The notes beneath the pieces are model-generated. The model was not told the origin of the DNA and searched no databases. It saw only the letters and a list, made by a program, of their open reading frames with translations. From Patescibacteria group bacterium (GTDB lineage: Bacteria > Patescibacteriota > Patescibacteriia > UBA2591 > JAQUPP01): DNA of 64,000 bases. How positions within the stretch are numbered: position 1 is the stretch's first letter; each line of letters opens with the position of its first letter. The translations under genes were made by a program, and so were the position numbers. The DNA lies in NCBI GenBank assembly GCA_041649955.1, contig JBAZMD010000001.1, forward strand, positions 68,079 through 132,078. Reading direction: 5' to 3'. Shown here piece by piece: positions 1-63,993 of this stretch.

Positions 1-83
1 AGGCCGCCACCAAACCGAATCCGGCCGTAATTAAAGAAGATAATTTTTCTAAAATTTCCAACTTGAGTGATTTTTGATTTTGT

Positions 84-52983: not shown

Positions 52984-53001
52984 ATTTTATTTATTTGTTA
53001 A

Positions 53002-53238
53002 TTATTTAATTAATTCTGTTAATTTATCAAGTTTTTTATGAAACACGGAAACAATCTTGCCGAATTGATTGCTCGGAATAAGAATTATTGTTTCTGCCGG
53101 AGTCAAAAAAGCCACCAGCTTATCGCCGCTTTTTATTTTCAATTTTTTGCGGATTTCGGCCGGAACTACAATCTGTCCCCGTTCGCCGACTGTGGCGGTA
53201 TCAAAACAAATTATGCTTTCAAAAAAATCTTTTTTCAT
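53002..53238 (-). CDS. AbrB/MazE/SpoVT-family DNA-binding protein
   Basis: 78 aa; swapped-hairpin motif GQIVVPAEIRKKLKIKSGDKLV. Confidence 0.75.
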   Translation of the reverse strand: MKKDFFESIICFDTATVGERGQIVVPAEIRKKLKIKSGDKLVAFLTPAETIILIPSNQFGKIVSVFHKKLDKLTELIK

Positions 53239-53329
53239 AAATTTTTATATTAAATAATATGATTTATATGATACTTCATACAAATCATATTATAGCTAAT
53301 CTAAAATCTTCGTCAACCCCCACACCAAA

Positions 53330-53730
53330 CTTAGCGCTTGATTTACATATTATAAAAGTCGTAAGACGGAAGCCGCTTCGCTCTTATCTCTTCATATTAA
53401 AAAAGCCTTACGTTGAGTTGTGGTGTGGGGGTCAACCCCTCTGTGGACAAATTACAAATAACTCTAACAAAATAAATAGGGGTGAGAGAACTTGTCTCAC
53501 ACCCCCCTGGAGGATAACAGTGTATAAAGCTGTTATATCGATATTAGTGTTTTAAGGCGGTATTCCCCTATAATGGGACATGAGGACCTCCTATTTTTAG
53601 CAATTTAGGTAGCGCTCAAATTTGATCCCTTTCAGGATCTGGCTAGCGCTAAGCCATTGCTTTCATAAAAACCACCTCCTTTATATTATGATATAAACGA
53701 GTATATCACATTTTAAAATTTTGTCAACTC
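53330..53730 (-). ncRNA. candidate non-coding/leader transcription unit (promoter, two SD-preceded tiny ORFs MKAMA* and MSHYRGIPP*, multiple hairpins)
   Basis: minus strand: TTGACA-16-TATACT promoter at ~53712-53684, then AAGGAGGTG-8nt-ATG and ATAGGAGG-6nt-ATG; no ORF >10 aa on this strand. Confidence 0.3.
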
Positions 53731-53733
53731 TTT

Positions 53734-54135
53734 TTATTTAATTTTATCCACATTTCCATTGAGAATAATCGGTTTCATCGCTTCTATTTCATCCGTATAA
53801 TTCATTTTGGGAATCTGGTTTAATAAAAATATCTTTTTATTCAAGATATGCGCAAAAGCCATTTCTATCAAACTATTGCCGCCGATATAATTTTTAATAC
53901 CTTGCTTGTCTTTATTAATAACCAGTATCGCGTCGCACTTTTTTATTTCTTCAAAATATTCTTTAAAAACATCACCTTCAATTTTTGACCATTTATCTTC
54001 ATGATTAACTTCACCCTCGGCGTATTTTAAAATATCCTTTGGTGCAATCGCAATTAATCCTTTTGCTTCAAGGATTTTTTGAGTTTCCAATATTTCTTTT
54101 GAAAAGGCAATACTGCCGCAAATCGCAATTTTCAT
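53734..54135 (-). CDS. nucleoside 2-deoxyribosyltransferase-like (Rossmann-like) protein
   Basis: Start reassigned to MKIAICGSIAF (the ORF-track N-terminus translates a palindromic promoter region); ILVINKD...GGNSLIEMAFAH pattern. Confidence 0.45.
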   Translation of the reverse strand: MKIAICGSIAFSKEILETQKILEAKGLIAIAPKDILKYAEGEVNHEDKWSKIEGDVFKEYFEEIKKCDAILVINKDKQGIKNYIGGNSLIEMAFAHILNKKIFLLNQIPKMNYTDEIEAMKPIILNGNVDKIK

Positions 54136-54166
54136 ATTTTTAGTATAATATTTTTTAAAATTATGT

Positions 54167-54227
54167 CCACCCCACCACCAAGAAATTATACTTCGCGTTA
54201 AAAAAATATAATTTCTAGGTGGCGGGG
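54167..54227 (-). promoter_or_regulatory. palindromic operator-like site (ccaccccaccaccaagaaattata / tataatttctaggtggcgggg) overlapping promoter of 53734-54135
   Basis: ~21-bp inverted arms separated by 16 nt; -35 TTGACC and -10-like boxes within. Confidence 0.4.
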
Positions 54228-54281
54228 TCAATAAAAAAAATTGGGTGCAGACTAGTCAAACTAGTTCTGCACCCTGATATG

Positions 54282-54695
54282 TTATATACTCGCTATTTGG
54301 ATATTTAGCTCTTCCTGTTGTCTTCTTAGTGTGTCTCTAGCTTGAAAAACTAGAGAATTCTTATCTTCAATTCTAACCTTATTCAAAGATAAAGTTGAAG
54401 AGTTCTCAACAGAATTGACCGGTTTTACTATATTCACCTTTAGAATATTGAATTCGATTTTTCCAATCTCTTTTTTTACCGGTTTTACTAAAACCTGCGA
54501 AACTAATTCAACGGGCTGAGCAACGGTAGATAAATCATTATTACTTATCTCTATACTCATCGGCAATACTTCTGGCATTGTTGTTACCTTGCTTACAACC
54601 GGTGTAAATTTGTTTTCCAAATTTGTAGTAGAAGCATAAGCTCCTATGGCAGTAAACACAACAACAACTAACAGAATTTTTTGAAATTTATTCAT
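54282..54695 (-). CDS. secreted hypothetical protein
   Basis: 137 aa with N-terminal signal peptide; stereotyped promoter upstream at 54786-54818. Confidence 0.45.
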   Translation of the reverse strand: MNKFQKILLVVVVFTAIGAYASTTNLENKFTPVVSKVTTMPEVLPMSIEISNNDLSTVAQPVELVSQVLVKPVKKEIGKIEFNILKVNIVKPVNSVENSSTLSLNKVRIEDKNSLVFQARDTLRRQQEELNIQIASI

Positions 54696-55029
54696 TTAAG
54701 ACCTCCCGTCTTATTAGTTTTGCGAATCCTTTCTTTTTAGCCCGGATTCGCTTCGGCTATTTACAAAGAACTATTGTGTTATATATAATAGCATATTTTT
54801 GAATTTTGTCAACCCCCTCACATGTGGAAAACCATAAAGGGCATACTGTCTTTCGTTTTTTTATATATACACTGATTTTATCTTATCTATATGCTTATTT
54901 TTAACTTTATGCCTATTAAACTGTAATTTCCAAGAAAGACAATGGTTTTCCTTGTGAGGGGGCCAAGAGCAAATTTGGGGATAAATAAAAGGGGCGATTT
55001 CTCGCCCCCCGTTTAAATACTTACTATTC

Positions 55030-55473
55030 CTATTCTTTTAGCTTCTTCATCCATGCCTTTAAACATTCTTCTACTTTTGGAAAGTCCTGAAACGTTGTGT
55101 TATCAGGACAGGAGATAATAATGACCATACTCTTACGTTCTATGACCGGATGCACCAGAACGCACATATCTTCCATGTCAAAGATGTTAAATTGATCATT
55201 ATCAATATCCCCAACATTTACATATGAAGCTGTCTTCCTGTGCTGCTTATACTGAAAAGTAAGAATAATGCCGGTATCTCGCGCAACTTTAGGATTTAAA
55301 ACTTCATAATCCATTATCTCTTCAATTTTCTCGGCTCCATAGAACATCAACTTGCCCACTTTTATTTTCCGCTGCTCTAATAAAATATATTTAAGCGCGG
55401 GAATATTATTCAGCTCCTCATCTATCTTTTCCGAATCTACTAATACATTATTCACTGCTGTTGTTGCGCCCAT
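55030..55473 (-). CDS. hypothetical protein
   Basis: 147-aa ORF; stereotyped promoter at 55527-55558; GC hairpin terminator ggggggcgagaaatcgcccc downstream. Confidence 0.45.
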   Translation of the reverse strand: MGATTAVNNVLVDSEKIDEELNNIPALKYILLEQRKIKVGKLMFYGAEKIEEIMDYEVLNPKVARDTGIILTFQYKQHRKTASYVNVGDIDNDQFNIFDMEDMCVLVHPVIERKSMVIIISCPDNTTFQDFPKVEECLKAWMKKLKE

Positions 55474-55585
55474 TATTGCCCCCCCCTTTTTTTTCTATTC
55501 AACGAACTTTAATTTTTATATGTTTTAATTATAGCATATTTTTGATTTTTGTCAATAGATTGAAAAAAGGCGCTTAATTATTTAA

Positions 55586-55795
55586 TTAATACGCCTTCTT
55601 ATTCATACAGGCCTCCAAGATTTCTCTGAATGTCCTTTTATCCGATTTATCCGCATTGGGACAATGAGAAATTGGTTCTATTGGTAAAATTCCTAATCCC
55701 CTTAAAGTTTTCCTAACCTCATCCGCTTTAATCGCAGAATTGGGATTAGTAGGAATCTGCCAATAACCTGGATGGTTATTATCAAAAATGTCCAT
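55586..55795 (-). CDS. hypothetical small protein
   Basis: 69-aa ORF with promoter at 55811-55844. Confidence 0.4.
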   Translation of the reverse strand: MDIFDNNHPGYWQIPTNPNSAIKADEVRKTLRGLGILPIEPISHCPNADKSDKRTFREILEACMNKKAY

Positions 55796-55897
55796 TTTTC
55801 CTCCTTTATATTAATAGCATAGCATAAAATTGAGAAATGTCAAGATAGTTAAATTTAACTGTAATTTTCAGAAAAATAATAATCCCCATATGGGGAC

Positions 55898-55926
55898 TTG
55901 ACAAAAATCGGAAAATATGATATTTT
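55898..55926 (+). promoter_or_regulatory. plus-strand stereotyped promoter TTGACAAAAATCGGAAAATATGATATTTT preceded by ccccatatgggg palindrome
   Basis: Same motif as the minus-strand promoters; AAGGAGG RBS 8 nt before ATG 55997. Confidence 0.5.
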
Positions 55927-55996
55927 AAATGTATATAAATCAGTTATTTGAAAACCAAAAAAAAGTAAGAAGTAAAGAAAGAAGGAGGAGGTGAAC

Positions 55997-56473
55997 ATGT
56001 TTAATTTATTGGTGGCAGCAATGCTTATAGCCGCTCCCAAGACATATACAGTTCAAGGGGGTCCGGGACTTAGTTGCGACGGTTTCATATTTAGGGGTTC
56101 GGTAGACTACGGAAAGGTTGGTCTACAAATTTCGGAGTCCATATATTACAACATCGAGAAGAGTTACAACTTTCTTCACAGAGCAGAGTTCAGAACACTG
56201 CTTACCGGGACTGATTGTGACTATTTCTTTGTAGGGGGAGCTATCAATGAAACCAAAGGAAAGATTCCTACTACTGGTGTGGGAATAAGTGCCGGAGTGG
56301 GAGGTAGATTCACTTCTTGGTTCATTATAGAAGTGGGTCTTATCTGGGAAGTGTTCGGGGAATTCGGCGGAACATACAAATATGTATGTGACCGCAATTC
56401 ATTTGATAACTCATCCAGTAATAAATCAAAGTACGGTTGCATTTTCAATGTAACTGTTCCTCTGATAAGGTGA
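55997..56473 (+). CDS. secreted hypothetical protein (the only substantial plus-strand gene in this island)
   Basis: Start at ATG 55997 (AAGGAGG 8 nt upstream) rather than GTG 55991; signal peptide MFNLLVAAMLIAAPKTYT; visibly less AT-rich than neighbours. Confidence 0.55.
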   Translation: MFNLLVAAMLIAAPKTYTVQGGPGLSCDGFIFRGSVDYGKVGLQISESIYYNIEKSYNFLHRAEFRTLLTGTDCDYFFVGGAINETKGKIPTTGVGISAGVGGRFTSWFIIEVGLIWEVFGEFGGTYKYVCDRNSFDNSSSNKSKYGCIFNVTVPLIR

Positions 56474-56479
56474 GAATTT

Positions 56480-56535
56480 TAGGGCCTTAGTCTATACACA
56501 TAATAGTATAGATTGAGGCCCGTTTTTTTATCTAA
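56480..56535 (+). terminator. rho-independent terminator gggcct...aggccc + T7
   Basis: hairpin followed by gttttttta. Confidence 0.6.
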
Positions 56536-56573
56536 AAAGCGTAATGGGCGACAGATTTTCTGTCGCCCATTGA

Positions 56574-56969
56574 TTATATTTGACATCCGGGATATCGCTC
56601 TGTGGGGATTCTTTCCCCGCCATTGTGATTTTGCGTCATTGCAATCTTTCGTTCAATGTTATCGCACCTTATACATTGAACACTGCCAAGTTTTTGAACC
56701 AATCGCAGAAATATACAGCAATCTTTCCCTCTGCCTCCTCCGCATTTTTTGATGTCGGTGATCTTTATTTCTTTTTCAAGTTCTATAACTTTCAGTTCAT
56801 CAGTTTTTACCGCTATTGCCGCAATAATGCCATCTCCAAAAAACAACACCGCTGTTTCGTCCAAATTGCAATGAGAAAATACACCTTGTATCGGACCTAC
56901 TAAATTACCACAACTGATACCTTCCATTCCTTTATAGGATACTACTGTTTGTTTCGGAATTTGTTCCAT
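56574..56969 (-). CDS. hypothetical protein with Cys-rich C-terminal half
   Basis: 131 aa; CGGGRGKDCC...CIRCDN; promoter motif at 57034-57067 supports this strand over the antisense ORF. Confidence 0.45.
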   Translation of the reverse strand: MEQIPKQTVVSYKGMEGISCGNLVGPIQGVFSHCNLDETAVLFFGDGIIAAIAVKTDELKVIELEKEIKITDIKKCGGGRGKDCCIFLRLVQKLGSVQCIRCDNIERKIAMTQNHNGGERIPTERYPGCQI

Positions 56970-57078
56970 TCATCCCACCTCCTTTTAAAAGATGCTTTTA
57001 AATCCTTAATTATTAGATTTAATTTGTTACTATTATTTAAGCAAATTTTTTGATTTTTGTCAACCCCTATTACAAAAA

Positions 57079-57825
57079 TTATTCTTTGACCAATTCAACA
57101 GACAAGCTTTCAAGAGGGATTCCTTGATATTGCTTTTTGCTTATCTCTTTATTTTCCAATAAAATATTGGCAATAAATCCCACTTTTTTTATTTTATTCA
57201 AATAATCTTCTTTTAATAACGCTCCTGCCACGCAACCGGATAATAACTCTTCATTATTTCTTTGCTCGTCCGATAATTCTTTTAATAAAACAATATCAGA
57301 AACATACATTCTGCCTCCTCTTTTCAAAACCCTATAAGCTTCTTTAAACGTTTTTTCTTTATCCGGAGTAAGATTTATGACGCAGTTTGTTATTATAACA
57401 TCCACGGTATTGTCTTTAATCGGCAGATTTTCTATTTCTCCTAAAATAAATTCTAAATTTTTTAAATTATTATTTTTGGCGATTGATTTTGCTCTTTCAA
57501 CCATTGCCTCGGTCATATCTATTCCGATAACTTTGCCGTTTTCACCAACTTTTTTTGCGGCCAAGAAACAATCAATACCAGCCCCTGATCCCAAATCCAA
57601 AACCGTATCCCCTTCTTTTATCTTGCTTAGAGCTACCGGATTCCCGCAGCCAAGACCAAGATTCGCGCTCCCTGCTACTTTGAGATCATTTTCCGAATAT
57701 CCTATATCTTTTGAAATATTAACGCCTTTTCCGCAACTACAGCTGCAACCGCATTGAGAACCGCTCTTCGCCAATTCTTCATATTTACTTTTTACGATTT
57801 GTTTTATATCTTTAGAATTTTTCAT
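57079..57825 (-). CDS. arsM: arsenite S-adenosylmethionine methyltransferase-like (ArsM family)
   Basis: 248 aa; N-terminal Cys cluster CGCSCSCG, NLGLGCGNP, motif I LDLGSGAGID, conserved C in LSGCVAGAL. Confidence 0.75.
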   Translation of the reverse strand: MKNSKDIKQIVKSKYEELAKSGSQCGCSCSCGKGVNISKDIGYSENDLKVAGSANLGLGCGNPVALSKIKEGDTVLDLGSGAGIDCFLAAKKVGENGKVIGIDMTEAMVERAKSIAKNNNLKNLEFILGEIENLPIKDNTVDVIITNCVINLTPDKEKTFKEAYRVLKRGGRMYVSDIVLLKELSDEQRNNEELLSGCVAGALLKEDYLNKIKKVGFIANILLENKEISKKQYQGIPLESLSVELVKE

Positions 57826-57952
57826 AATTTAATTTTGCTTATAATATTTTATATTTTTAGTATAGCAAATTTAAATAAAAAAATATAGCAGCTTGTTTTG
57901 AATAAATTTTAAATGGGGAAAAGCTTTTGCCTTTCCCCATTTCCTTCAATTA

Positions 57953-58384
57953 TTATTTTCTAAATGTCAGAGAAGAGAAGAAAGCAGGCAAGGCCTCAAT
58001 AATACGGCGCCGAAAATCAGCCTCTACTTCTAAAAATGGTTTCTCTTCTTGGATAGCCACTTTTAACATCCCGAATGTATTACCAATTAGAGCTCGGTGA
58101 CCCATTTCGTCTTCTACTTCCTTAAGTTCATCCTGATATTTCTGAAGTCCTAATTTGATGCTCATTACCAAACCATCTATCCTGGCAGGCTGATTTGAGA
58201 ATTTAACAATTTGCAAGACCTGGTATATATGTTTTAAGGTATCTTCCTGAATCCGCTTAACTTCTACTGTATAAAAATTACTATTTTTTTGGGCTAACCT
58301 TAATACATCTTGTTCTCTTTCCAGAATTTCTTTTATCTCTTCCCACTGTTTTTGATAAAGAACTTCTTTGCTCATTTCAATCAC
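57953..58384 (-). CDS. hypothetical protein
   Basis: 143-aa ORF with promoter at 58411-58435 and hairpin terminator 57912-57942. Confidence 0.45.
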   Translation of the reverse strand: MIEMSKEVLYQKQWEEIKEILEREQDVLRLAQKNSNFYTVEVKRIQEDTLKHIYQVLQIVKFSNQPARIDGLVMSIKLGLQKYQDELKEVEDEMGHRALIGNTFGMLKVAIQEEKPFLEVEADFRRRIIEALPAFFSSLTFRK

Positions 58385-58475
58385 CCCCTTTTTTTAATTA
58401 TTTAAAATATATCATAATTTTTACTTTTTGTCAAGACATTTTTGAATAATAAAAAAAGATTTAAAGAATCTAGTT

Positions 58476-59066
58476 TTATACAGTGGCATCTCTCCTTTCT
58501 TTCACAAATCCTATCCGCTTGTTTTGTGCTGTCATTTTTATAAAGTAAGCGAGCGTTTTTTTATACATATCCATATGGTGCTGTTTGCGATCCTCAATAT
58601 ATGCAATTCTAATGCGCCGATATGAGAGCGGAAATGCTTGAAAATATTTCCAAGCATTCTTATTCCTCCGCAACGCCTTATAAATATCTTTGGGAACTGC
58701 AAATTTATTAGTTTCATCTATTTTCGGATTGAATGCATGCGCGATAGCTTTAAGTCCATATTTTGTCATCTTTTTTTCTTTTATGAGCTCATATATGCGC
58801 TCTCTATTCATCTGCGAAAGCCCGCTTCTTGATTTGCGCGGTGAAAAACGTTGCGCAAAACGCTCTTTGTCAATCTTTTTAACAGTGCTGTCAATCCACC
58901 CATAGCAAAGAGCTTCCAGGACCGCATCGTCATATGAAATACGAGGTTTCCCGGTTTCTTTGCGATAATATATAAGCCATATTTCTTTTTGGTTTTTATG
59001 ATTTTTTATCAGCCATTTCCGCCAATTTTTCCTATTGGTTACGTAAAGTGTATTTTTAATTTCCAT
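58476..59066 (-). CDS. YdeI/OmpD-associated family protein (DUF1801-like)
   Basis: 196 aa; WRKWL...EIWL, ALCYGWIDS, FKAL motifs typical of YdeI family. Confidence 0.75.
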   Translation of the reverse strand: MEIKNTLYVTNRKNWRKWLIKNHKNQKEIWLIYYRKETGKPRISYDDAVLEALCYGWIDSTVKKIDKERFAQRFSPRKSRSGLSQMNRERIYELIKEKKMTKYGLKAIAHAFNPKIDETNKFAVPKDIYKALRRNKNAWKYFQAFPLSYRRIRIAYIEDRKQHHMDMYKKTLAYFIKMTAQNKRIGFVKERRDATV

Positions 59067-59156
59067 ATTTTTATAATATCATTTTTTGTTCAAAAGTACC
59101 AGATTTAAAAAAAATCAGGGGCGAACATAAGTTCGCCCCTTTATAATTCTCTCCTT

Positions 59157-60914
59157 TCATTTAAGATTATCGTTTATCGCTTTATAAGCCTTTTGAATAT
59201 TCCAGCCATCTCTATTACAGAGATGGTAAACAAAATTGTGGAGTTCTTTAAGATCGTATTCATCGTAGATAGAAATAAGCTTTCGAGTAAGAACAAAAAG
59301 ATGTTCTGCTATCAAATCATTGTCTGTCCTTTTTGTATCCACGTGAAGTTTCCCGCTTTCTGTGACCGTGATAATACTTGCGGCCATCAGCTTATTCAAA
59401 ATTCCCATGCATTCGTTGACGTATGGAGCCACGGTTGGATTATTAAAATTACTCTGTTCCAACATTCTGATTAAGTGAGAAATAATCATGGCAGCAAGAC
59501 TTGAGAAAGCTTCTTTTCTAATTTCATCACTGAGCGAACCATTTTCAATTGCCTGACGAACCCCTTCAATATCAAGCAGTGTTGCTTTCATTTCCTCAAC
59601 CTTTGACTTATTATCGCCAAAGACCTCAATTAAACGTTCATTAATACAGAAACAATGTCCAAATTCGTGGCCAAAGACGTCCAAGTAAGCGAATTCTTCT
59701 TTCAAAAATTTCATGGCCCAAGTTGAACTTTCCGGGTCAAGCACTTTTTGAATAAGACTCTGAAATCCGTGAAAACGCTGTTTCATGGATTCTTGATCTA
59801 AAAAAACTTTCATTCCCAGTGCTTGCGCTTCCGGATAATTTGGCACTGACTGACCGGCTAAACGAAAATCAATATTGGAACCGCTAGCCAAAATAGTCAG
59901 AAAAACTCCCACATCAGTTCTCTTAATCTTTTCAACGGCCCTTGGGTCAAATTTCTTTGCGAGATCGCTCATTTCTTTGCGCATAAGACCCAATTCTTTC
60001 GCATGACAACCTGTTCGCCATAATAAACGGTATTCCGGCGCTACGCGAATTGGAACCTCATAATCACTTTCCATCATATGAACAGGAATAAGACGACGGT
60101 CAGAACTGATTTCTATCCATTTTTTATCAACTTCTATCCAAAGAGTTTCCATTTGTTCCAAATCCTTATTAATCAAAGCAGTGCGAAGTGCTAAAAAATA
60201 TTCCCGATAATCAGTATCATCCGGCAAATTCTTTGCCAGTTGTTTTAGAATCTTGGCAATTCCATTAATTTCAATCGGAAACATCTCGACAAGCGGAATT
60301 TGTTTTGCCTTTTCAATTTGCTTTGCAGTAAGCGGTTTGGTATAAGGATTATTTGGACCCCTGGCAAGTACTGAATACTTATCGGTTTTCCCAAATTTTT
60401 GAATCAATTCCTTAAGTTCATCCGCACTCAACTTGCTTGTCCGAAACGGAATGACAACCCATTTCCACCACTTGCTGAAAAGATCATCAAAAAGCGTGCC
60501 TATTTTGTATCCGGCCTCGGCAATAAAATTTTCTTCATCAAACGCCAAAATATTAGGGCATGCCATACAGACATCTTTTAGGGCTGCGTGAATCGCATCC
60601 TGACATGGACGGACGACCAGCGAATAAAAAAATGACAACTTAACGGCGTCATCTTTTGGCAGTTGAGCACCTGCCGTATTGGTTCTTCTGGCCGCGTATT
60701 CCACTGCCAAATCAACCGGCACATTGAAATCAATTGCAATTATAATTTTTGCAATTTGATTTCTGATTTTCTTATCATTTATAAGAAAATAGTCAACACT
60801 GTCCATCATTTCCTTGAGTACCTCTGTGGGTTCTGACAAAATAAATTCTTTCGGCCTTTCTTTCAAAATCTCAATTAACTCCGCAGAGTATTCCTTTGCT
60901 TTTTTCAAATCCAT
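59157..60914 (-). CDS. large hypothetical protein with HExxH (HEFGH) zincin-like motif
   Basis: 585 aa soluble protein; DVFGHEFGHCF. Confidence 0.45.
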   Translation of the reverse strand: MDLKKAKEYSAELIEILKERPKEFILSEPTEVLKEMMDSVDYFLINDKKIRNQIAKIIIAIDFNVPVDLAVEYAARRTNTAGAQLPKDDAVKLSFFYSLVVRPCQDAIHAALKDVCMACPNILAFDEENFIAEAGYKIGTLFDDLFSKWWKWVVIPFRTSKLSADELKELIQKFGKTDKYSVLARGPNNPYTKPLTAKQIEKAKQIPLVEMFPIEINGIAKILKQLAKNLPDDTDYREYFLALRTALINKDLEQMETLWIEVDKKWIEISSDRRLIPVHMMESDYEVPIRVAPEYRLLWRTGCHAKELGLMRKEMSDLAKKFDPRAVEKIKRTDVGVFLTILASGSNIDFRLAGQSVPNYPEAQALGMKVFLDQESMKQRFHGFQSLIQKVLDPESSTWAMKFLKEEFAYLDVFGHEFGHCFCINERLIEVFGDNKSKVEEMKATLLDIEGVRQAIENGSLSDEIRKEAFSSLAAMIISHLIRMLEQSNFNNPTVAPYVNECMGILNKLMAASIITVTESGKLHVDTKRTDNDLIAEHLFVLTRKLISIYDEYDLKELHNFVYHLCNRDGWNIQKAYKAINDNLK

Positions 60915-61130
60915 CTCCCACCTCCTTGTGGTTAAATTTAATTTTTTTCAATGAACAACTATTCCTCCTTTAATTTAATTATTTATATATTAATTTATTT
61001 TTTGGAAAATGTCAATATCAAAAAAAGACATTATTACTGCAGGTATTATTGATTGCACGAAAACCATTTGAATAAATTTTGAATAATAATACCGGGTTAA
61101 TCGCTTAACCCGGTAAATACTTATTTTTTA

Positions 61131-61523
61131 TTACGCCCACCTGAAAGCGGAATTTTCCAACTTCGCAATATCCTCTTTTGAGAGAACGGTCATAACCGGT
61201 CTTTCACCCCAATCAGGATTAGAAATACTGAGATATTCCAGAGAAATAGCCTGCTTACTATCGGGACTAACGAGAAGCGGCAATTCTTTTATCTCATTCC
61301 TTGTTTTCGGAAGTTTTTTAAGCACTTCCGGAAATAAACTGCAATCAGCGCAGAAAAACGGCTCATGCGACTTATGACCATTAAGCTTTACAAGAGCAGG
61401 AAGGAAACTTCCCATACCGTGTTTTTTCTCTATCAATCCACCTTTGACAATCCTCCAGCCATTAAGCTTTACGCCCTGCAATTCGCCTAATTTTTTAGGG
61501 TACTCATTTTTTAAATTTTTCAT
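61131..61523 (-). CDS. hypothetical protein
   Basis: 130-aa ORF; promoter 61546-61574; hairpin terminator accgggttaaTCGCttaacccggt at 61092-61116. Confidence 0.45.
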   Translation of the reverse strand: MKNLKNEYPKKLGELQGVKLNGWRIVKGGLIEKKHGMGSFLPALVKLNGHKSHEPFFCADCSLFPEVLKKLPKTRNEIKELPLLVSPDSKQAISLEYLSISNPDWGERPVMTVLSKEDIAKLENSAFRWA

Positions 61524-61589
61524 CTTTACCTCCTTCTAGATAAAAAGATAACATAAAAATATTTTTTTGTCAATATCAAAAAAAGCCCT

Positions 61590-61943
61590 CTATGAAGGCT
61601 CTTTTTTAAAAATTTGCTTTTGTGCCAACAATAAACTTATTAATACTAAAATATTTAAAATCAGAGAAATGACATCAAAAATACCGACTTCATCTGTTAT
61701 TGATAATATTGCGTTAAATAGGGAGAAAATAATTGAGAATACGAAAATTATTTTAATTCTTTTTATTAATCCAAAAAGCGCAATGGCAAAAAATAAGGGT
61801 TCAAGAAATAATAATATTTTAAGTATTAAATAATTTTCGTAGGAAGCAAATTTAAAAAATGAAAAATAAACGGCGATTATGCTCCAAAAAATAATGCTTA
61901 TTATCAGAAGTATCTTGCATAAAATTAAAGGAAAAAATTTCAT
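61590..61943 (-). CDS. hypothetical integral membrane protein
   Basis: 117 aa, 3-4 predicted TM helices. Confidence 0.45.
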   Translation of the reverse strand: MKFFPLILCKILLIISIIFWSIIAVYFSFFKFASYENYLILKILLFLEPLFFAIALFGLIKRIKIIFVFSIIFSLFNAILSITDEVGIFDVISLILNILVLISLLLAQKQIFKKEPS

Positions 61944-61960
61944 AATTTTAACTTTCGGCT

Positions 61961-62434
61961 TTATTTTTTTCTAAAAACTTTAATTTCTGAAAGATATTTT
62001 CTGCTCAAAAAAAGAGCGCCCAGTATAATAGCCGGAATAGATATGATCATTGATTCAAAACGGGAAAGAATAAGCATCAATAATCCAATGATAAGAAAAA
62101 TAAATCCTCCCAGTCGCTCATGTTTCCATGCAACGATAATCAGTATAAGCAAAGCAAATGACGGCAATAAATGCATAAAAAGAGGTAGAATAACTCTCCA
62201 GCCGCTGTATTCAGAAAACACATCAAGCGAAAACAAAGATAAAAATACGACAAATCCAATGCTTAAAATTCTCGGCAGCCAATAAATAATTTTATTCATA
62301 TGATTAATATATTTATTTATAAAGATTGATTTAATCATAGCAAAAATGGAAAAAATAACAAGGTGAAATAAAATAGCGAATCTACGTTTGGTATTATAAA
62401 TTTTAATTATTCCATTCCTACAATTTGGCCTCAT
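61961..62434 (-). CDS. hypothetical integral membrane protein
   Basis: 157 aa, 4 predicted TM helices. Confidence 0.45.
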   Translation of the reverse strand: MRPNCRNGIIKIYNTKRRFAILFHLVIFSIFAMIKSIFINKYINHMNKIIYWLPRILSIGFVVFLSLFSLDVFSEYSGWRVILPLFMHLLPSFALLILIIVAWKHERLGGFIFLIIGLLMLILSRFESMIISIPAIILGALFLSRKYLSEIKVFRKK

Positions 62435-62515
62435 TTGGAAACCGCGGCTTTAATTTAATAAAGATTAAAAAAACCGCCCTAATTTTCATTAGTGGCGGTT
62501 TAAATTCGAATTTAA

Positions 62516-62758
62516 TTACATTTTAAGAAATGTCCATCCATACTTTACAAACATGCCTATCATAGCCAGGATACTTCCAAAAACCATTCCGATTCCGGCG
62601 ATACAGGTAACATTGAATGATTGATGAAATTTGGCCCAATCTTTTATAATTGGCCAGTAGCTCCCTTTTACTCCGTCTGTGAACATTGAGATAGCGAATA
62701 CTATGAATGAAAGTATCAGTATACCCAAACCCATCTTAACGAGAAAAAAATTAGTCAT
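62516..62758 (-). CDS. small membrane protein (start reassigned to MTNFFLVKMGL)
   Basis: ORF-track N-terminus overlaps the promoter at 62815-62844; two TM helices. Confidence 0.4.
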   Translation of the reverse strand: MTNFFLVKMGLGILILSFIVFAISMFTDGVKGSYWPIIKDWAKFHQSFNVTCIAGIGMVFGSILAMIGMFVKYGWTFLKM

Positions 62759-62896
62759 CTCTCCCCCTTTATTGCTTTTTAAAAAACTATTGTTAGTTTT
62801 TATATTATATTTAAATAATAGCACATTTTTCACTTTTTGTCAAGTGTAATTATCTCTAATTTTAAAAAATAACCGCTTAAATAAACGGTTATTTTT

Positions 62897-62970
62897 TGGC
62901 TGCGGGAGATGGATTCGAACCATCATAGCCAGCTCCAAAGGCTGGAGTCCTACCATTAGACGATCCCGCA
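62897..62970 (-). tRNA. tRNA-Gln (anticodon UUG), CCA encoded
   Basis: Manual fold: acceptor TGCGGGA/TCCCGCA (U1:A72), D-arm GTCT/GGAC, anticodon stem CCAGC/GCTGG with loop CTTTGGA, T-arm GATGG-TTCGAAT-CCATC, discriminator G73. Confidence 0.85.
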
Positions 62971-62979
62971 ATATATATT

Positions 62980-63234
62980 TTATATTATTTTATTTTTAAG
63001 TATTCTTTTACCTTTCGCGGTCTTATAAAATCTTTCCATTCTATAAGCTTCATATTTATCAGGGTAATTTTCAAAATAAATTAACTTTATCGGCAACCTA
63101 CTACGAGTAGAAAAAACTTTTTTACTTTTATGTTCTATTAATCTCTTCTGTAAATTAGAAGTACAGCCTATATATAAATTATCATCTTTTAGACTTCTTA
63201 AAACATAGATTGTATGCATTGTTTTATTTACCAT
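62980..63234 (-). CDS. small GIY-YIG nuclease family protein (YhbQ/UPF0213-like)
   Basis: 84 aa; IYVLRSLKDDNLYIGCTSNLQKRLIEH = GIY...YIG...R...H catalytic core. Confidence 0.75.
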   Translation of the reverse strand: MVNKTMHTIYVLRSLKDDNLYIGCTSNLQKRLIEHKSKKVFSTRSRLPIKLIYFENYPDKYEAYRMERFYKTAKGKRILKNKII

Positions 63235-63293
63235 TAGCCTCGCCCGTAGGCAGTAGCCTACTGGCTACGGCCGTCTCACCCGTAGGTTACGAC

Positions 63294-63313
63294 CGAGGGA
63301 GGGACGATCCCGC
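63294..63313 (-). repeat. direct repeat of the tRNA-Gln 5' end (gggacgatcccgcaatat), att-like partial duplication
   Basis: 13-17 nt identical to 62958-62975; flanks the GIY-YIG gene with the tRNA. Confidence 0.5.
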
Positions 63314-63354
63314 AATATTCAAATTATTATAACAAATTTTAAAAATTTGGCAAA

Positions 63355-63993
63355 TTATTTACCTCGCCATTTCCAAAAATATTTAATCCCGCTGGCAATA
63401 TGAATCCATGTAATTTTAGATAATAAAGTCGGACTAGTGCTGCGTTCCGCAGAAAGCCGCTGATGGAAATGATACATATGAGCTTCGGGAAAATAATAAA
63501 CTTTTTTGCCGAATTTCCAAATCCGCCGCGCCAAATCAGTGTCTTCAAAATAAAGAAAAAATCTTTCATCAAAATAATTAATTTTTTCCAAAACTTCTTT
63601 TTTAATCATTAAGGCCGCGCCCAAAAGCCAATCCACTTCTTTTGTTTCATTGTGTTGCCAATCTGACATTAAATATCTGCCTAATTTCTTTTTCAAAAAA
63701 GGAAGTTTTCCTAAAAAAGTTCGGCGGAGAATCGGCATATACCAACAAGGAAATTGACAGCTGGAATACTGGATTGTTCCATTGGGATTTAATAGTTTGG
63801 GTCCGACCATCGCCGCTTCATTATTTTCTTCTAAAAATTTATAAAGTTTTTCCACTGAATCTTTTAAAACAATCACGTCCGGATTTAAAATTAAAACATA
63901 TTTTCCCTGAGCCAATTTAATCCCCTGATTATTCGCCCGGGCAAAACCATAATTCTTATTATTTAAAATAACCCTAAGTTTTAAAGACGGCAT
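63355..63993 (-). CDS. family 2 glycosyltransferase (N-terminally truncated by window edge)
   Basis: GFARANNQG, LNPDVI, DED-type fragments of the GT-A fold; ORF runs to window end. Confidence 0.65.
   Translation of the reverse strand: MPSLKLRVILNNKNYGFARANNQGIKLAQGKYVLILNPDVIVLKDSVEKLYKFLEENNEAAMVGPKLLNPNGTIQYSSCQFPCWYMPILRRTFLGKLPFLKKKLGRYLMSDWQHNETKEVDWLLGAALMIKKEVLEKINYFDERFFLYFEDTDLARRIWKFGKKVYYFPEAHMYHFHQRLSAERSTSPTLLSKITWIHIASGIKYFWKWRGK

What the first reader, a model, noticed from the sequence alone, without database searches (positions are those of the whole stretch)
62897..63313. tRNA-Gln(UUG) with a duplicated 5'-end flanking a GIY-YIG nuclease gene
The 74-nt tRNA-Gln sits on the minus strand at 62897-62970. 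The first ~17 nt of its 5' end plus flank (agacgatcccgcaatat) recur at 63294-63313. The 84-aa GIY-YIG gene (62980-63234) lies between them, together with a palindrome-rich non-tRNA segment (cctcgcccgtaggcagtagcctactggctacggcc). This looks like an att-type partial tRNA duplication left by insertion of a small cassette, unusually at the tRNA 5' side. The ~10-kb accessory island to the left (53000-62850) may be part of the same integration history.
Basis: seen in the sequence. Interest (0 to 1): 0.55.

Follow-up and report, generated by a model that had tools for sequence, protein, structure and literature searches.

The report
Nuclease gene cassette riding on tRNA-Gln
A tiny nuclease gene, a short palindromic DNA element and a spare copy of the first 20 bases of tRNA-Gln sit between that tRNA gene and its promoter; the same layout recurs in dozens of Patescibacteria and is missing from a close relative, so it looks like an undescribed selfish cassette aimed at tRNA genes.

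Summary
tRNA-Gln(UUG) lies at 62970-62897 on the minus strand. A 16-nt exact copy of its 5' end lies at 63318-63303, an intact 79/84-aa GIY-YIG gene lies between them, and a 65-nt GC-rich palindromic segment splits the upstream tRNA copy. This is not a one-off scar. All 36 non-redundant loci carrying a close homologue of the nuclease show the same order, apart from one cut by a contig end and one variant order: promoter, tRNA nt 1-12, conserved palindrome "E", tRNA nt 12-20..49, GIY-YIG ORF, then an intact tRNA-Gln or tRNA-Glu. The ORF stop codon often lies inside the tRNA. A close relative (L088) has the same neighbouring genes and an identical tRNA but no cassette, which gives an empty site. 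No integrase is present, and the variable DNA to the left is unrelated to the cassette. The protein belongs to the SLX1/UPF0213 branch of GIY-YIG nucleases, not the I-TevI branch. My best reading is a selfish, recombination-mobile nuclease cassette that uses the tRNA promoter and keeps the tRNA intact by duplicating its 5' end. How it inserts, and what palindrome E does, are unresolved. I found no description of it in the literature available to me.

The parts
63326..63353 (-). Sigma-70-type promoter, TTGCCA-16 nt-TGtTATAAT. The predicted transcript start is about 63320-63318, 4-6 nt before the tRNA fragment.
   Evidence: Best promoter match in 62700-63500, 11 of 12 positions with an extended -10. 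It is conserved in L001 and, as TTGAAA..TGTTATAAT, in front of the tRNA at the empty site L088.
63303..63318 (-). Upstream copy of the tRNA-Gln 5' end: ATAT plus tRNA nt 1-12 (TGCGGGATCGTC).
   Evidence: 16 of 16 identical to 62974-62959, with 0.01 expected by chance. The same fragment occurs at the same place in 29 forward-type relatives.
63238..63302 (-). Palindromic element E (CCTC..GGCCGTAGCC AGTA GGCTAC TG CCTACGGGCGAGG), carrying a nested second mini-palindrome E'.
   Evidence: Forty-three good copies of E were found in relatives. The arms are CCTCGGCCGTAG / CTACGGGCGAGG, the G.G mismatch is invariant, and the flanks are always ..TC|E|C...
63274..63299 (-). Nested mini-palindrome E' (CCTCGGTCGTAACCTACGGGTGAGA). 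It is a clean 26-nt insertion relative to the closest relative; its position is uncertain by about 3 nt because CCTCGG is repeated.
   Evidence: Alignment with L001 shows a single 26-nt gap. Near-identical E' copies are nested at other positions of E in L018 and L033.
63229..63237 (-). Continuation of the upstream tRNA copy: CTAATGGTA, tRNA nt 12-20 (D-loop).
   Evidence: Collinear 9-nt match. In relatives this piece runs to tRNA nt 20-49 and supplies an AGGA ribosome-binding site.
62980..63234 (-). GIY-YIG nuclease gene. It is 84 aa from ATG 63234, or 79 aa from ATG 63219, which matches the family's MHTIYVL start.
   Evidence: Pfam PF01541 at 1e-14. A PDB profile search hits UPF0213 BH0048 at 3e-10 and SLX1 at 1e-4. 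The AF2 model has pLDDT 94, and Foldseek finds UPF0213 and SLX1 at TM 0.64-0.71, against E=0.46 for I-TevI. Y10, Y21, H35 and E67 are invariant and R31 nearly so.
62897..62970 (-). Intact tRNA-Gln(UUG) with encoded CCA, starting 9 nt after the ORF stop codon.
   Evidence: It is 74 of 74 identical to the tRNA at the empty site L088.
62864..62897 (-). Terminator-like hairpin followed by a T run (AAAAAATAACCGtttatttaaGCGGTTATTTTTT).
   Evidence: Inverted repeat I1, 16-nt arms, 94% complementary. It is conserved in L001 with compensating changes.

Best explanation
This is one member of a widespread Patescibacteria cassette: a minimal (~80 aa) SLX1/UPF0213-type GIY-YIG nuclease gene lodged between a tRNA-Gln (or tRNA-Glu) gene and that gene's promoter. 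Shown: the cassette is bounded upstream by a duplicate of the tRNA 5' end that is broken by a conserved 26-40-nt palindrome (E). Downstream the ORF runs up to, or into, nt 1-15 of an intact tRNA. The cassette is present or absent among close relatives. Inferred: one transcript starts at the tRNA promoter and carries the broken tRNA piece, E, the nuclease mRNA and the tRNA, so the nuclease gene needs no promoter of its own. The tRNA stays functional because its 5' end was duplicated. The cassette spreads by recombination at the tRNA sequence, probably stimulated by DNA cleavage by its own nuclease, that is, homing-like and without a recombinase. E travels with it and can itself be copied into further tRNA copies. 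The exact joining mechanism and the role of E are not resolved.
For: Recurrence: among the close homologues (about 55% identity or more), 45 of the 47 fetched loci have a tRNA starting 229-267 nt after the ORF start (longer in three loci that carry an extra pseudo-copy). The two exceptions are L037, cut by a contig end, and L046, where the order is intact tRNA, ORF, E-laden tRNA copy. The tRNAs are 42 Gln and 3 Glu. In 39 non-redundant loci the stop codon lies inside the tRNA in 21, mostly the D-loop UAA, and within 14 nt upstream in 14. This explains the C-terminal ..CGIV tails. An upstream tRNA fragment plus E is present in all but one locus.

Empty site: L088.

Mobility: the cassette sits on both Gln isoacceptors, interspersed in the protein tree, with a tRNA-Glu clade nested among them. 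The Glu cassettes carry the same E flanked by Glu-specific sequence. Some tRNA remnants differ from the resident tRNA by compensated stem changes (L042, L046, L018) or cannot pair with the resident acceptor strand (L044, L019). Identical E copies in two tRNA copies of one locus (L010, L020, L042) point to local gene conversion.

Expression: the only strong promoter lies upstream of the fragment, and no complete promoter precedes the tRNA.

Nuclease integrity: catalytic residues are conserved, and the comparison with L001 gives 7 synonymous against 8 conservative non-synonymous codon changes.
Against: No cleavage activity or target is known. The protein lacks the DNA-binding domain of classical GIY-YIG homing enzymes, and its nearest structural relatives are structure-selective rather than sequence-specific nucleases. 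The intact tRNA beside the cassette is identical to the empty-site tRNA, so a tRNA-targeting nuclease would not spare its own locus. The left homology arm is only 12 nt. In 17 of 29 loci the fragment equals the host's own tRNA although acceptor stems differ widely between lineages. That needs either target duplication at each insertion or homogenisation, and no single simple model explains it together with E. L088 could be a loss rather than the ancestral state. The patchy distribution could reflect many losses.
Confidence: 0.55

Rival explanations
1. The palindrome E is the primary mobile element and the minimal structure-selective GIY-YIG nuclease is its mobilising enzyme. This would be a GIY-YIG counterpart of REP/RAYT or IS200/IS605 hairpin systems. 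E lands after a TC at defined sites of tRNA-Gln/Glu genes (the D-stem, the T-loop, or the opposite strand at nt 4-7) and kills that copy. Only cells with a duplicated tRNA survive, which produces the observed pseudo-copies.
For: E has the same DNA sequence in both orientations, and the asymmetric mismatch is invariant in 43 of 43 copies. The flanks are always 5' TC and 3' C. It occupies three distinct insertion sites, and E also sits nested inside E (window, L018, L022, L026, L033). The 26-nt E' is a clean indel between the window and L001. Full-length pseudo-tRNAs carry E in both the D and T sites (L040, L042, L046). E is absent from about 560 kb outside cassettes, so it is tied to the nuclease gene. 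The nearest structural relatives of the protein cut hairpin or branched DNA. More distant tRNA-linked GIY-YIG genes carry different GC hairpins (L053, L059, L063, L073, L081, L153).
Against: GIY-YIG enzymes are hydrolytic and are not known to catalyse strand transfer. A few ancient insertions followed by inheritance and gene conversion could explain most copies. Copy numbers are very low. There is no experimental evidence.
Confidence: 0.2
2. A domesticated operon. The GIY-YIG protein serves the cell, for example in repair of the heavily transcribed tRNA locus or in nucleic-acid processing. The broken tRNA piece plus hairpin is a 5' leader that stabilises the mRNA or tunes translation against tRNA maturation.
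For: The ORF is intact and conserved. In relatives the D-arm piece supplies an AGGA 2-12 nt before the ATG. E is a stable hairpin (-15 to -25 kcal/mol, z -2.8 to -3.9). At stem position 9, G.U falls on the sense strand 12 times against 1. A stop codon inside the tRNA couples translation to processing.
Against: The cassette is absent from close relatives with the same tRNA (L088; also L154-L159), so it is dispensable. The distribution is patchy. E works in either orientation, which would give a different RNA. Over all stem positions the G.U bias is not significant (14 against 8, p=0.29). In the window itself the AGGA is missing and the ORF has its own early stop.
Confidence: 0.15
3. A classical integrase-mediated island: the partial tRNA repeat is an att site, and the ~10 kb on the left is part of the same integration event.
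For: A tRNA-flanking repeat and variable gene content next to the tRNA.
Against: No integrase or recombinase domain is found in 51.3-64 kb. The repeat is at the 5' end and encloses only 330 bp. There is no direct repeat of the tRNA 3' end. Presence of the variable left region and presence of the cassette are uncoupled in L001 and L088.
Confidence: 0.03
4. A decaying tandem tRNA duplication with no mobility. A chance local duplication trapped an unrelated ORF, and the hairpin is junk.
For: The upstream piece is a truncated pseudo-tRNA, and its 3' extent varies from nt 12 to nt 49 among relatives.
Against: The same ORF family, the same palindrome and the same junctions recur in at least 36 species, on four different tRNA genes and in unrelated gene neighbourhoods.
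Confidence: 0.04

Closest known systems
Free-standing GIY-YIG homing endonuclease genes, e.g. phage T4 SegB in the tRNA gene cluster (PMC2330249) and I-TevI
   Same: A small selfish GIY-YIG nuclease gene inserted at a fixed site next to or within tRNA genes, with presence/absence polymorphism between relatives and no recombinase.
   Different: This one lies in a cellular genome. The protein is only the ~80-aa catalytic domain, of the SLX1/UPF0213 branch, with no DNA-binding domain. The target gene's 5' end is duplicated, a conserved palindrome is part of the unit, and the ORF overlaps the tRNA.
SLX1 / UPF0213 (YhbQ, YazA, BH0048) structure-selective GIY-YIG nucleases (PMC7017083; PDB 1zg2, 7cq2)
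   Same: These are the best sequence and fold matches, and the catalytic residues are conserved.
   Different: The protein has no zinc-finger domain and no partner such as SLX4. None of these proteins has been described as a tRNA-linked cassette with a palindrome.
Insertion sequences in CPR rRNA genes that encode GIY-YIG proteins and are not introns (PMC11270868)
   Same: The same phylum, with a GIY-YIG ORF inserted in a structural RNA gene and no ribozyme.
   Different: Here the target is a tRNA, and the RNA gene is kept whole by duplicating its 5' end. Homology between the two sets of ORFs was not tested.
tRNA-targeting integrative elements (att sites that regenerate the tRNA)
   Same: The element carries, or creates, a partial tRNA copy so that a functional tRNA survives insertion.
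   Different: The 5' end is duplicated rather than the 3' end. The cassette is 330 bp and has no integrase.
REP elements with RAYT transposases, and IS200/IS605 hairpin ends (PMC3733652)
   Same: A 26-40-nt imperfect palindrome with an asymmetric mismatch and a fixed flanking nucleotide context, tied to a nearby nuclease gene.
   Different: There are 1-4 copies, only inside the cassette, rather than dispersed copies. No HUH/Y1 transposase is present; the associated enzyme is GIY-YIG.
'Fractured genes' split by free-standing homing endonuclease genes (PMC2677866)
   Same: A nuclease gene sits inside a host gene without an intron or intein to remove it.
   Different: There the host gene stays split and is repaired at protein level by split inteins. 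Here the gene is restored at DNA level by duplication.

Membership tests
GIY-YIG nuclease superfamily (Pfam PF01541) | GIY and YIG motifs plus the conserved Arg, His/Tyr and Glu of the active site | tested here: met
   Pfam E=1e-14, 55 bits against a cut-off of 22.6. Y10, Y21, H35 and E67 are invariant and R31 is at least 90% conserved in 35 sequences.
GIY-YIG nuclease superfamily (Pfam PF01541) | Three-stranded sheet flanked by helices (the GIY-YIG fold) | tested here: met
   The AF2 model has pLDDT 94.4 with secondary structure E-E-H-H-E-H-H. Foldseek matches UPF0213 and SLX1 nuclease domains at TM 0.57-0.71.
SLX1/UPF0213 (URI) branch | Closer in sequence and fold to UPF0213/SLX1 than to I-TevI or UvrC | tested here: met
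   PDB profile search: 1zg2 at 3e-10, 1ywl at 3.5e-9, SLX1 at 1e-4, with no I-TevI or UvrC hit. Foldseek: I-TevI E=0.46, UvrC E=1.2.
SLX1/UPF0213 (URI) branch | C-terminal zinc-finger domain of SLX1 proper | tested here: not met
   The protein is 79-84 aa, all of it the nuclease domain.
Homing endonuclease gene | Presence/absence polymorphism at one fixed genomic site among close relatives | tested here: met
   The window and L001 are filled. L088 is empty, with the same flanking genes and an identical tRNA. In Portnoybacteria with FtsX-tRNA-Gln synteny, L004 is filled and L154-L159 are empty.
Homing endonuclease gene | The encoded enzyme cleaves the empty allele at or near the insertion site | not testable with these tools
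   This needs biochemistry.
Homing endonuclease gene | The occupied allele is immune because the insertion destroys the target | tested here: inconclusive
   The upstream copy is split by E, but the intact tRNA is 74 of 74 identical to the empty-site tRNA.
Homing endonuclease gene | A sequence-specific DNA-binding module, as in I-TevI or the Seg proteins | tested here: not met
   There is no domain beyond the catalytic core.
Integrase-type tRNA island (att site) | A tyrosine or serine recombinase encoded in the element | tested here: not met
   Pfam scans of the ORFs from 51.3 to 64 kb find none.
Integrase-type tRNA island (att site) | A direct repeat of the tRNA 3' part at the far boundary | tested here: not met
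   Only 11-12-nt matches in inverted orientation, E 0.2-0.8.
Group I intron in a tRNA gene | A ribozyme core, with the tRNA complete only after splicing | tested here: not met
   No Intron_gpI or other Rfam hit at E<=10 in 62700-63500. The tRNA is complete as encoded.
REP / PATE-type palindromic repeats | A 20-40-nt imperfect palindrome | tested here: met
   E is 25-42 nt with 12-nt arms and one mismatch.
REP / PATE-type palindromic repeats | Many dispersed copies per genome | tested here: not met
   There are no copies in the rest of the 64-kb window or in about 500 kb of other loci. Whole genomes were not available.
REP / PATE-type palindromic repeats | An associated HUH/Y1 transposase (RAYT or TnpA) | tested here: not met
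   None is found in the window or in the flanks of the cassettes.

The most novel reading that the evidence does not exclude
A new kind of mobile element. A bare ~80-aa structure-selective GIY-YIG nuclease recognises a 26-40-nt palindrome as a hairpin or cruciform. It uses that palindrome to move both the palindrome and its own gene into defined sites of tRNA genes, and the tRNA is rescued by duplication of its 5' end. This would be a third enzymatic solution to hairpin-guided DNA mobility, beside HUH transposases and RAYTs. It may be general for the many tRNA-adjacent minimal GIY-YIG genes.
Probability: 0.2. Interest if true: 0.85.

Novelty: new variant of a known kind. Interest (0 to 1): 0.62.

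Why it matters
If this reading is right, it shows how a selfish nuclease gene can occupy an essential single-copy tRNA gene without harm: it borrows the tRNA promoter and regenerates the 5' end of the tRNA. It also assigns a concrete genomic role to a subgroup of the very large UPF0213/SLX1-like family of minimal GIY-YIG proteins, whose bacterial function is unknown (5,048 cluster representatives at E<=1e-10). It adds a third type of insertion in the RNA genes of Patescibacteria, beside rRNA insertions and tRNA group I introns. The palindrome-nuclease pairing can be tested directly and could reveal a new sequence- or structure-specific cutter. In practice, such cassettes cause ORF calls that run into tRNAs (..CGIV tails, N-termini translated from hairpins) and pseudo-tRNA fragments that confuse annotation.

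Tried and rejected
- An exact look-up of the window's protein found nothing on record.
- An Rfam scan at E<=10 found no known RNA family for E or the leader. It returned only the tRNA and spurious terminator-driven hits, so a group I intron or small ribozyme is rejected.
- The integrase/att island reading is rejected.
- E is not found in viral contigs.
- The whole leader 63320-63225 folds with only z=-1.9. E alone is significant.
- The test for an RNA-level hairpin by G.U bias gave 14 against 8 (p=0.29) over all stem positions. Only position 9 is biased (12 against 1), and that is post hoc and not phylogenetically independent. No covariation test was worthwhile because the arms are nearly invariant.
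- A model in which the whole module, including its tRNA, moves as a unit is disfavoured. The tRNA-Glu cassettes carry Glu-specific flanks around a Gln-type E.
- A model in which nt 13-26 are cassette-borne is disfavoured. Host-specific fragments of up to 38 nt occur (L025, L043).
- Seven literature searches found no description of this arrangement.
- The collections of E. coli genomes, plasmids and phages were not searched, as they are irrelevant to a Patescibacteria locus.
Full report
1. WHAT IS IN THE WINDOW. All features read on the minus strand, which is the tRNA sense strand. The window has about 35% G+C. Its homologues identify it as Patescibacteria (CPR). From 63353 down to 62864 the order is as follows.
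- A strong sigma-70-type promoter, TTGCCA-16-TGtTATAAT, at 63353-63326. It is the best in the region, 11 of 12 positions.
- ATAT plus tRNA-Gln nt 1-12, at 63318-63303.
- A 65-nt GC-rich palindromic segment, at 63302-63238.
- CTAATGGTA, tRNA nt 12-20, at 63237-63229.
- A GIY-YIG ORF. ATG 63234 gives 84 aa. ATG 63219 gives 79 aa and matches the family's MHTIYVL start. The stop codon is at 62982-62980.
- After 9 nt, a complete tRNA-Gln(UUG) with encoded CCA, at 62970-62897.
- A terminator-like hairpin with a T run, at 62897-62864.

The 16-nt repeat is exact, against 0.01 matches expected by chance. The tRNA is the only one in the 64 kb and scores 63.4 bits. The only correction is that the upstream repeat is at 63303-63318 and continues, after the 65-nt interruption, for 9 more nt.

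2. THE PROTEIN. It matches Pfam GIY-YIG at E=1e-14. A profile of 35 homologues hits the UPF0213 proteins BH0048 (3e-10) and EF2693, then SLX1 (1e-4), among solved structures. The AlphaFold model is confident (pLDDT 94). Its best structural matches are UPF0213 and the nuclease domains of SLX1 (TM 0.57-0.71). I-TevI (E=0.46) and UvrC (E=1.2) are far behind. The protein is therefore a bare catalytic domain of the structure-selective SLX1/UPF0213 branch and has no DNA-binding module. The catalytic Tyr, Tyr, Arg, His and Glu are conserved across the family. Against the closest relative (92% aa) there are 7 synonymous and 8 conservative non-synonymous codon differences. The gene looks functional.

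3. THE ARRANGEMENT RECURS.
- A search of 5.8 billion proteins gave 63 homologues, all from CPR or uncultured sources. The first three I placed on contigs (L001, L003, L004-L009) lie in three unrelated gene neighbourhoods: GT2 glycosyltransferases, MnmA, and FtsX. All sit directly upstream of a tRNA-Gln.
- A scan of one genome per GTDB species gave 78 more loci. Among the close homologues (about 55% identity or more), 45 of the 47 fetched loci have a tRNA starting 229-267 nt after the ORF start, or further in three loci with an extra pseudo-copy. The tRNAs are 26 Gln(CUG), 16 Gln(UUG) and 3 Glu.
- The two exceptions are L037, cut by a contig end, and L046, where the order is intact tRNA, ORF, E-laden tRNA copy.
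- Homologues below about 50% identity mostly lack an adjacent tRNA. Six abut tRNA-Tyr, Asn, Asp or Phe.
- In 39 non-redundant loci the stop codon lies inside the tRNA in 21, usually the D-loop UAA at nt 13-15, and within 14 nt upstream in 14. This is why so many family members end in ..C/S-G-I/V-V, the translation of tRNA nt 1-12. The window's ORF has an earlier stop and lacks this tail.

4. THE UPSTREAM PSEUDO-tRNA AND THE PALINDROME E.
- All but one locus have, upstream of the ORF, a piece of the same tRNA interrupted by a conserved palindrome, 5'-CCTCGGCCGTAG-(0-18 nt)-CTACGGGCGAGG-3'.
- In the common form, E sits between tRNA nt 12 and 13 (GATCGTC|E|CTAAYGG). The tRNA sequence then resumes and runs to nt 20-32, or to nt 49 in L025, ending 0-12 nt before the ATG. 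Its GGTAGGAC provides an AGGA ribosome-binding site.
- In seven species E is inverted and sits at nt 4-7, and the fragment ends at nt 11-16.
- Of 43 good copies, 36 are forward and 7 inverted. The asymmetric G.G mismatch is present in all 43. The 5' flank always ends in TC and the 3' flank starts with C.
- Some loci hold further, nearly full-length tRNA-Gln pseudo-copies with E in the D site and a second E in the T-loop (GGTTC|E|GAGTCC): L040, L042, L046.
- E also occurs nested inside E. In the window a 26-nt variant, E' (CCTCGGTCGTAACCTACGGGTGAGA, 63299-63274), interrupts the 5' arm. This is a clean indel relative to L001. Near-identical E' copies sit at other positions of E in L018 and L033. 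A further variant is nested in L022 and L026.
- E folds as a stable hairpin: -25.1 kcal/mol, z=-3.9 for the L001 copy, and -32.7, z=-3.2 for the window composite on the sense strand.
- No Rfam family matches it. It is absent from the rest of the window, from about 500 kb of other loci, and from viral contigs.
- E is therefore a low-copy palindrome confined to these cassettes. It is not a dispersed REP or MITE, and it is not a known RNA motif.

5. THE EMPTY SITE AND THE NEIGHBOURHOOD.
- Using the adjacent GT2 protein as a probe, I found L088 (metagenome contig Ga0265297_10018074). GT2 is 93% identical in protein. It is followed by a related promoter (TTGAAA..TGTTATAAT), a 24-nt leader and a tRNA-Gln 74 of 74 identical to the window's. 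There is no fragment, no E and no ORF. Next comes the DUF7670 gene, 94% nt identical to window 61568-62301.
- L001 (GT2 plus cassette plus tRNA, 88% nt identical) is filled and lacks only E'.
- L088 is not the product of simple recombination between the window's 16-nt repeats, because its leader and terminator differ.
- In Portnoybacteria the synteny RF1-FtsE-FtsX-tRNA-Gln is conserved. The cassette is present in L004-L009 and absent in L154-L159. Three different tRNA-Gln sequence types occupy that position.
- The region to the left of the tRNA is a mosaic of small membrane-protein genes. Window 59118-62863 is missing from L001. Window 62302-62894 and 61028-61567 are missing from L088.
- No recombinase domain occurs from 51.3 to 64 kb. 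No direct repeat of the tRNA 3' end is present.
- The cassette is thus an insertion polymorphism of its own. It is unrelated to an integrase island.

6. EVIDENCE THAT BEARS ON THE MECHANISM.
(a) Shared transcription is inferred. The only good promoter precedes the fragment. The weak match inside the ORF end would start downstream of tRNA nt 1.
(b) Movement between tRNA genes has occurred. CUG and UUG hosts are interspersed in a neighbour-joining tree of the 75-aa core, and the Glu clade is nested among Gln cassettes (the tree is short and poorly resolved).
(c) After the jump to tRNA-Glu, the same E is flanked on both sides by Glu-specific sequence (GGCCCTATCGTC|E|CTAACGGTTAGGA). In 17 of 29 forward-type loci the nt 1-12 fragment equals the host's own tRNA, although acceptor stems differ widely between lineages. 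Fragments of up to 38 nt are host-identical. The flanking tRNA pieces are therefore made from, or homogenised with, the host gene.
(d) Twelve loci show 1-3 differences. Some fragments cannot pair with the resident 3' strand (L044, L019). Full-length pseudo-copies in L042, L046 and L018 differ from the resident by compensated stem changes. These are remnants of other tRNA-Gln lineages, which suggests horizontal transfer.
(e) Identical E copies in two tRNA copies of one locus (L010, L020, L042) show local copying of E into an intact copy. A further intact copy then takes over.

I considered four joining models: insertion at nt 12/13 with cassette-borne tRNA pieces; ORF insertion with a long target duplication followed by E copying; a circle recombining at the 12-nt repeat; and movement of the whole module with its tRNA. 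The last is contradicted by point (c). None of the others explains every observation, so I leave the joining step open.

7. INTERPRETATION AND RIVALS.
- Best supported (0.55): a selfish, recombination-mobile nuclease cassette that sits between the tRNA and its promoter and keeps the tRNA functional through the 5' duplication. Its spread is probably stimulated by its own nuclease.
- Main rival, and the most novel reading (0.2): E is the mobile unit and the structure-selective nuclease is its mobilising enzyme.
- A domesticated operon with a structured leader (0.15) is weakened by the empty sites and by E working in both orientations. The G.U-on-sense bias is not significant overall (14 against 8), and the bias at stem position 9 (12 against 1) is post hoc.
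- The integrase/att model (0.03) and a non-mobile tandem pseudogene (0.04) are contradicted by the data.
- Open problems. The intact tRNA next to the cassette is identical to the empty-site tRNA, so target immunity is unexplained. E's DNA-level conservation in both orientations, together with its restriction to cassettes, has no precedent that I could find.

8. COMPARISON WITH WHAT IS KNOWN. The closest functional analogues are free-standing GIY-YIG homing endonuclease genes such as T4 segB in the phage tRNA cluster (PMC2330249). The closest in phylum are the non-intron GIY-YIG-encoding insertions in CPR rRNA genes (PMC11270868). [quoted passage not shown] It mentions neither GIY-YIG nor tRNA-Gln (PMC13011429). 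REP/RAYT systems (PMC3733652) are the nearest analogue for a palindrome tied to a nuclease gene, and 'fractured genes' (PMC2677866) for a nuclease gene inside a host gene without an intron. Seven full-text searches found no description of this cassette. The library does not hold all journals, so prior description cannot be excluded. I rate it a new variant of a known kind (a homing-type selfish nuclease gene). There is a 0.2 chance that the palindrome-nuclease pair is something categorically new.

9. BREADTH. A profile search of 1.84 billion cluster representatives finds 21,414 relatives at E<=1e-3 and 5,048 at E<=1e-10. Several annotated N-termini among the best hits are translations of tRNA sequence (..RFESLHPS..WFESKHTH..EWWNWQTRR..PGSSNG). 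Adjacency of minimal GIY-YIG genes to tRNAs is therefore probably much wider than the Gln/Glu clade studied here.

Noticed in passing
window 59118-62863; also 62302-62894 and 61028-61567: The DNA just beyond the tRNA terminator is a mosaic among three close relatives. L001 lacks 59118-62863. L088 lacks 62302-62894 (a 105-aa membrane-protein ORF with its own promoter-like sites) and 61028-61567 (a 130-aa ORF). No recombinase or att-like repeat explains these indels.
   Followed up: partly
L001 4874-4899; window 63363-63369: L001 has a third, degenerate E copy (CCTCGGCTGTAGCCTTACGGGCGAAG) that forms the last codons and stop of the GT2 gene. In the window only GGCGAGG remains there, and the GT2 C-terminus differs (..WRGK* against ..WLNPRL*). 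The empty-site relative has ..WRK*.
   Followed up: partly
L053, L059, L063, L073, L081 (upstream of the ORF start at about 2501 or 1298): More distant GIY-YIG homologues abut tRNA-Phe, Tyr, Asn and Asp genes. They also have an upstream 5' fragment of that tRNA, interrupted or followed by GC-rich hairpins of quite different sequence (for example CCCCGCC-loop-GGCGGGG types, many with UUCG or GNRA-like loops).
   Followed up: partly
L152/L153 2466-2970: In a Portnoybacteria lineage an intact tRNA-Gln(CUG) with a different D-arm is followed by about 170 nt of pseudo-tRNA pieces riddled with other GC hairpins, then a different GIY-YIG subfamily ORF (2710-2970). No tRNA lies downstream.
   Followed up: no
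L010 2380-3055; L020 2440-2887; L040, L042, L046 2740-3000: These loci hold two or three tRNA-Gln copies. The copy abutting the ORF has itself received E (identical to the upstream E), and a further intact tRNA follows. Full-length pseudo-tRNAs carry E in both the D-stem and the T-loop.
   Followed up: partly
L156 2489-2660: About 60 nt downstream of an uninterrupted tRNA-Gln there is a 19-nt copy of its 3' end (GAATCCCTCCTCCCTAACA). This looks like an ordinary 3'-side att-type scar and is unrelated to the cassette.
   Followed up: no
proteins P0009, P0010, P0185, P0186, P0188, P0206: Public gene calls for this family often start too early or end too late. N-termini such as MPDRPSAVARP.. are translations of E. 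Others are translations of tRNA T-arms or D-arms, and the ..CGIV tails are tRNA nt 1-12. These are annotation artefacts that could serve as a search signature.
   Followed up: partly
window 60908-60919 and 57642-57652 (+ strand): There are 12-nt and 11-nt exact matches to the tRNA-Gln 3' part (nt 56-67 and 64-74) in inverted orientation. E is 0.2 and 0.8, so they are probably chance.
   Followed up: no
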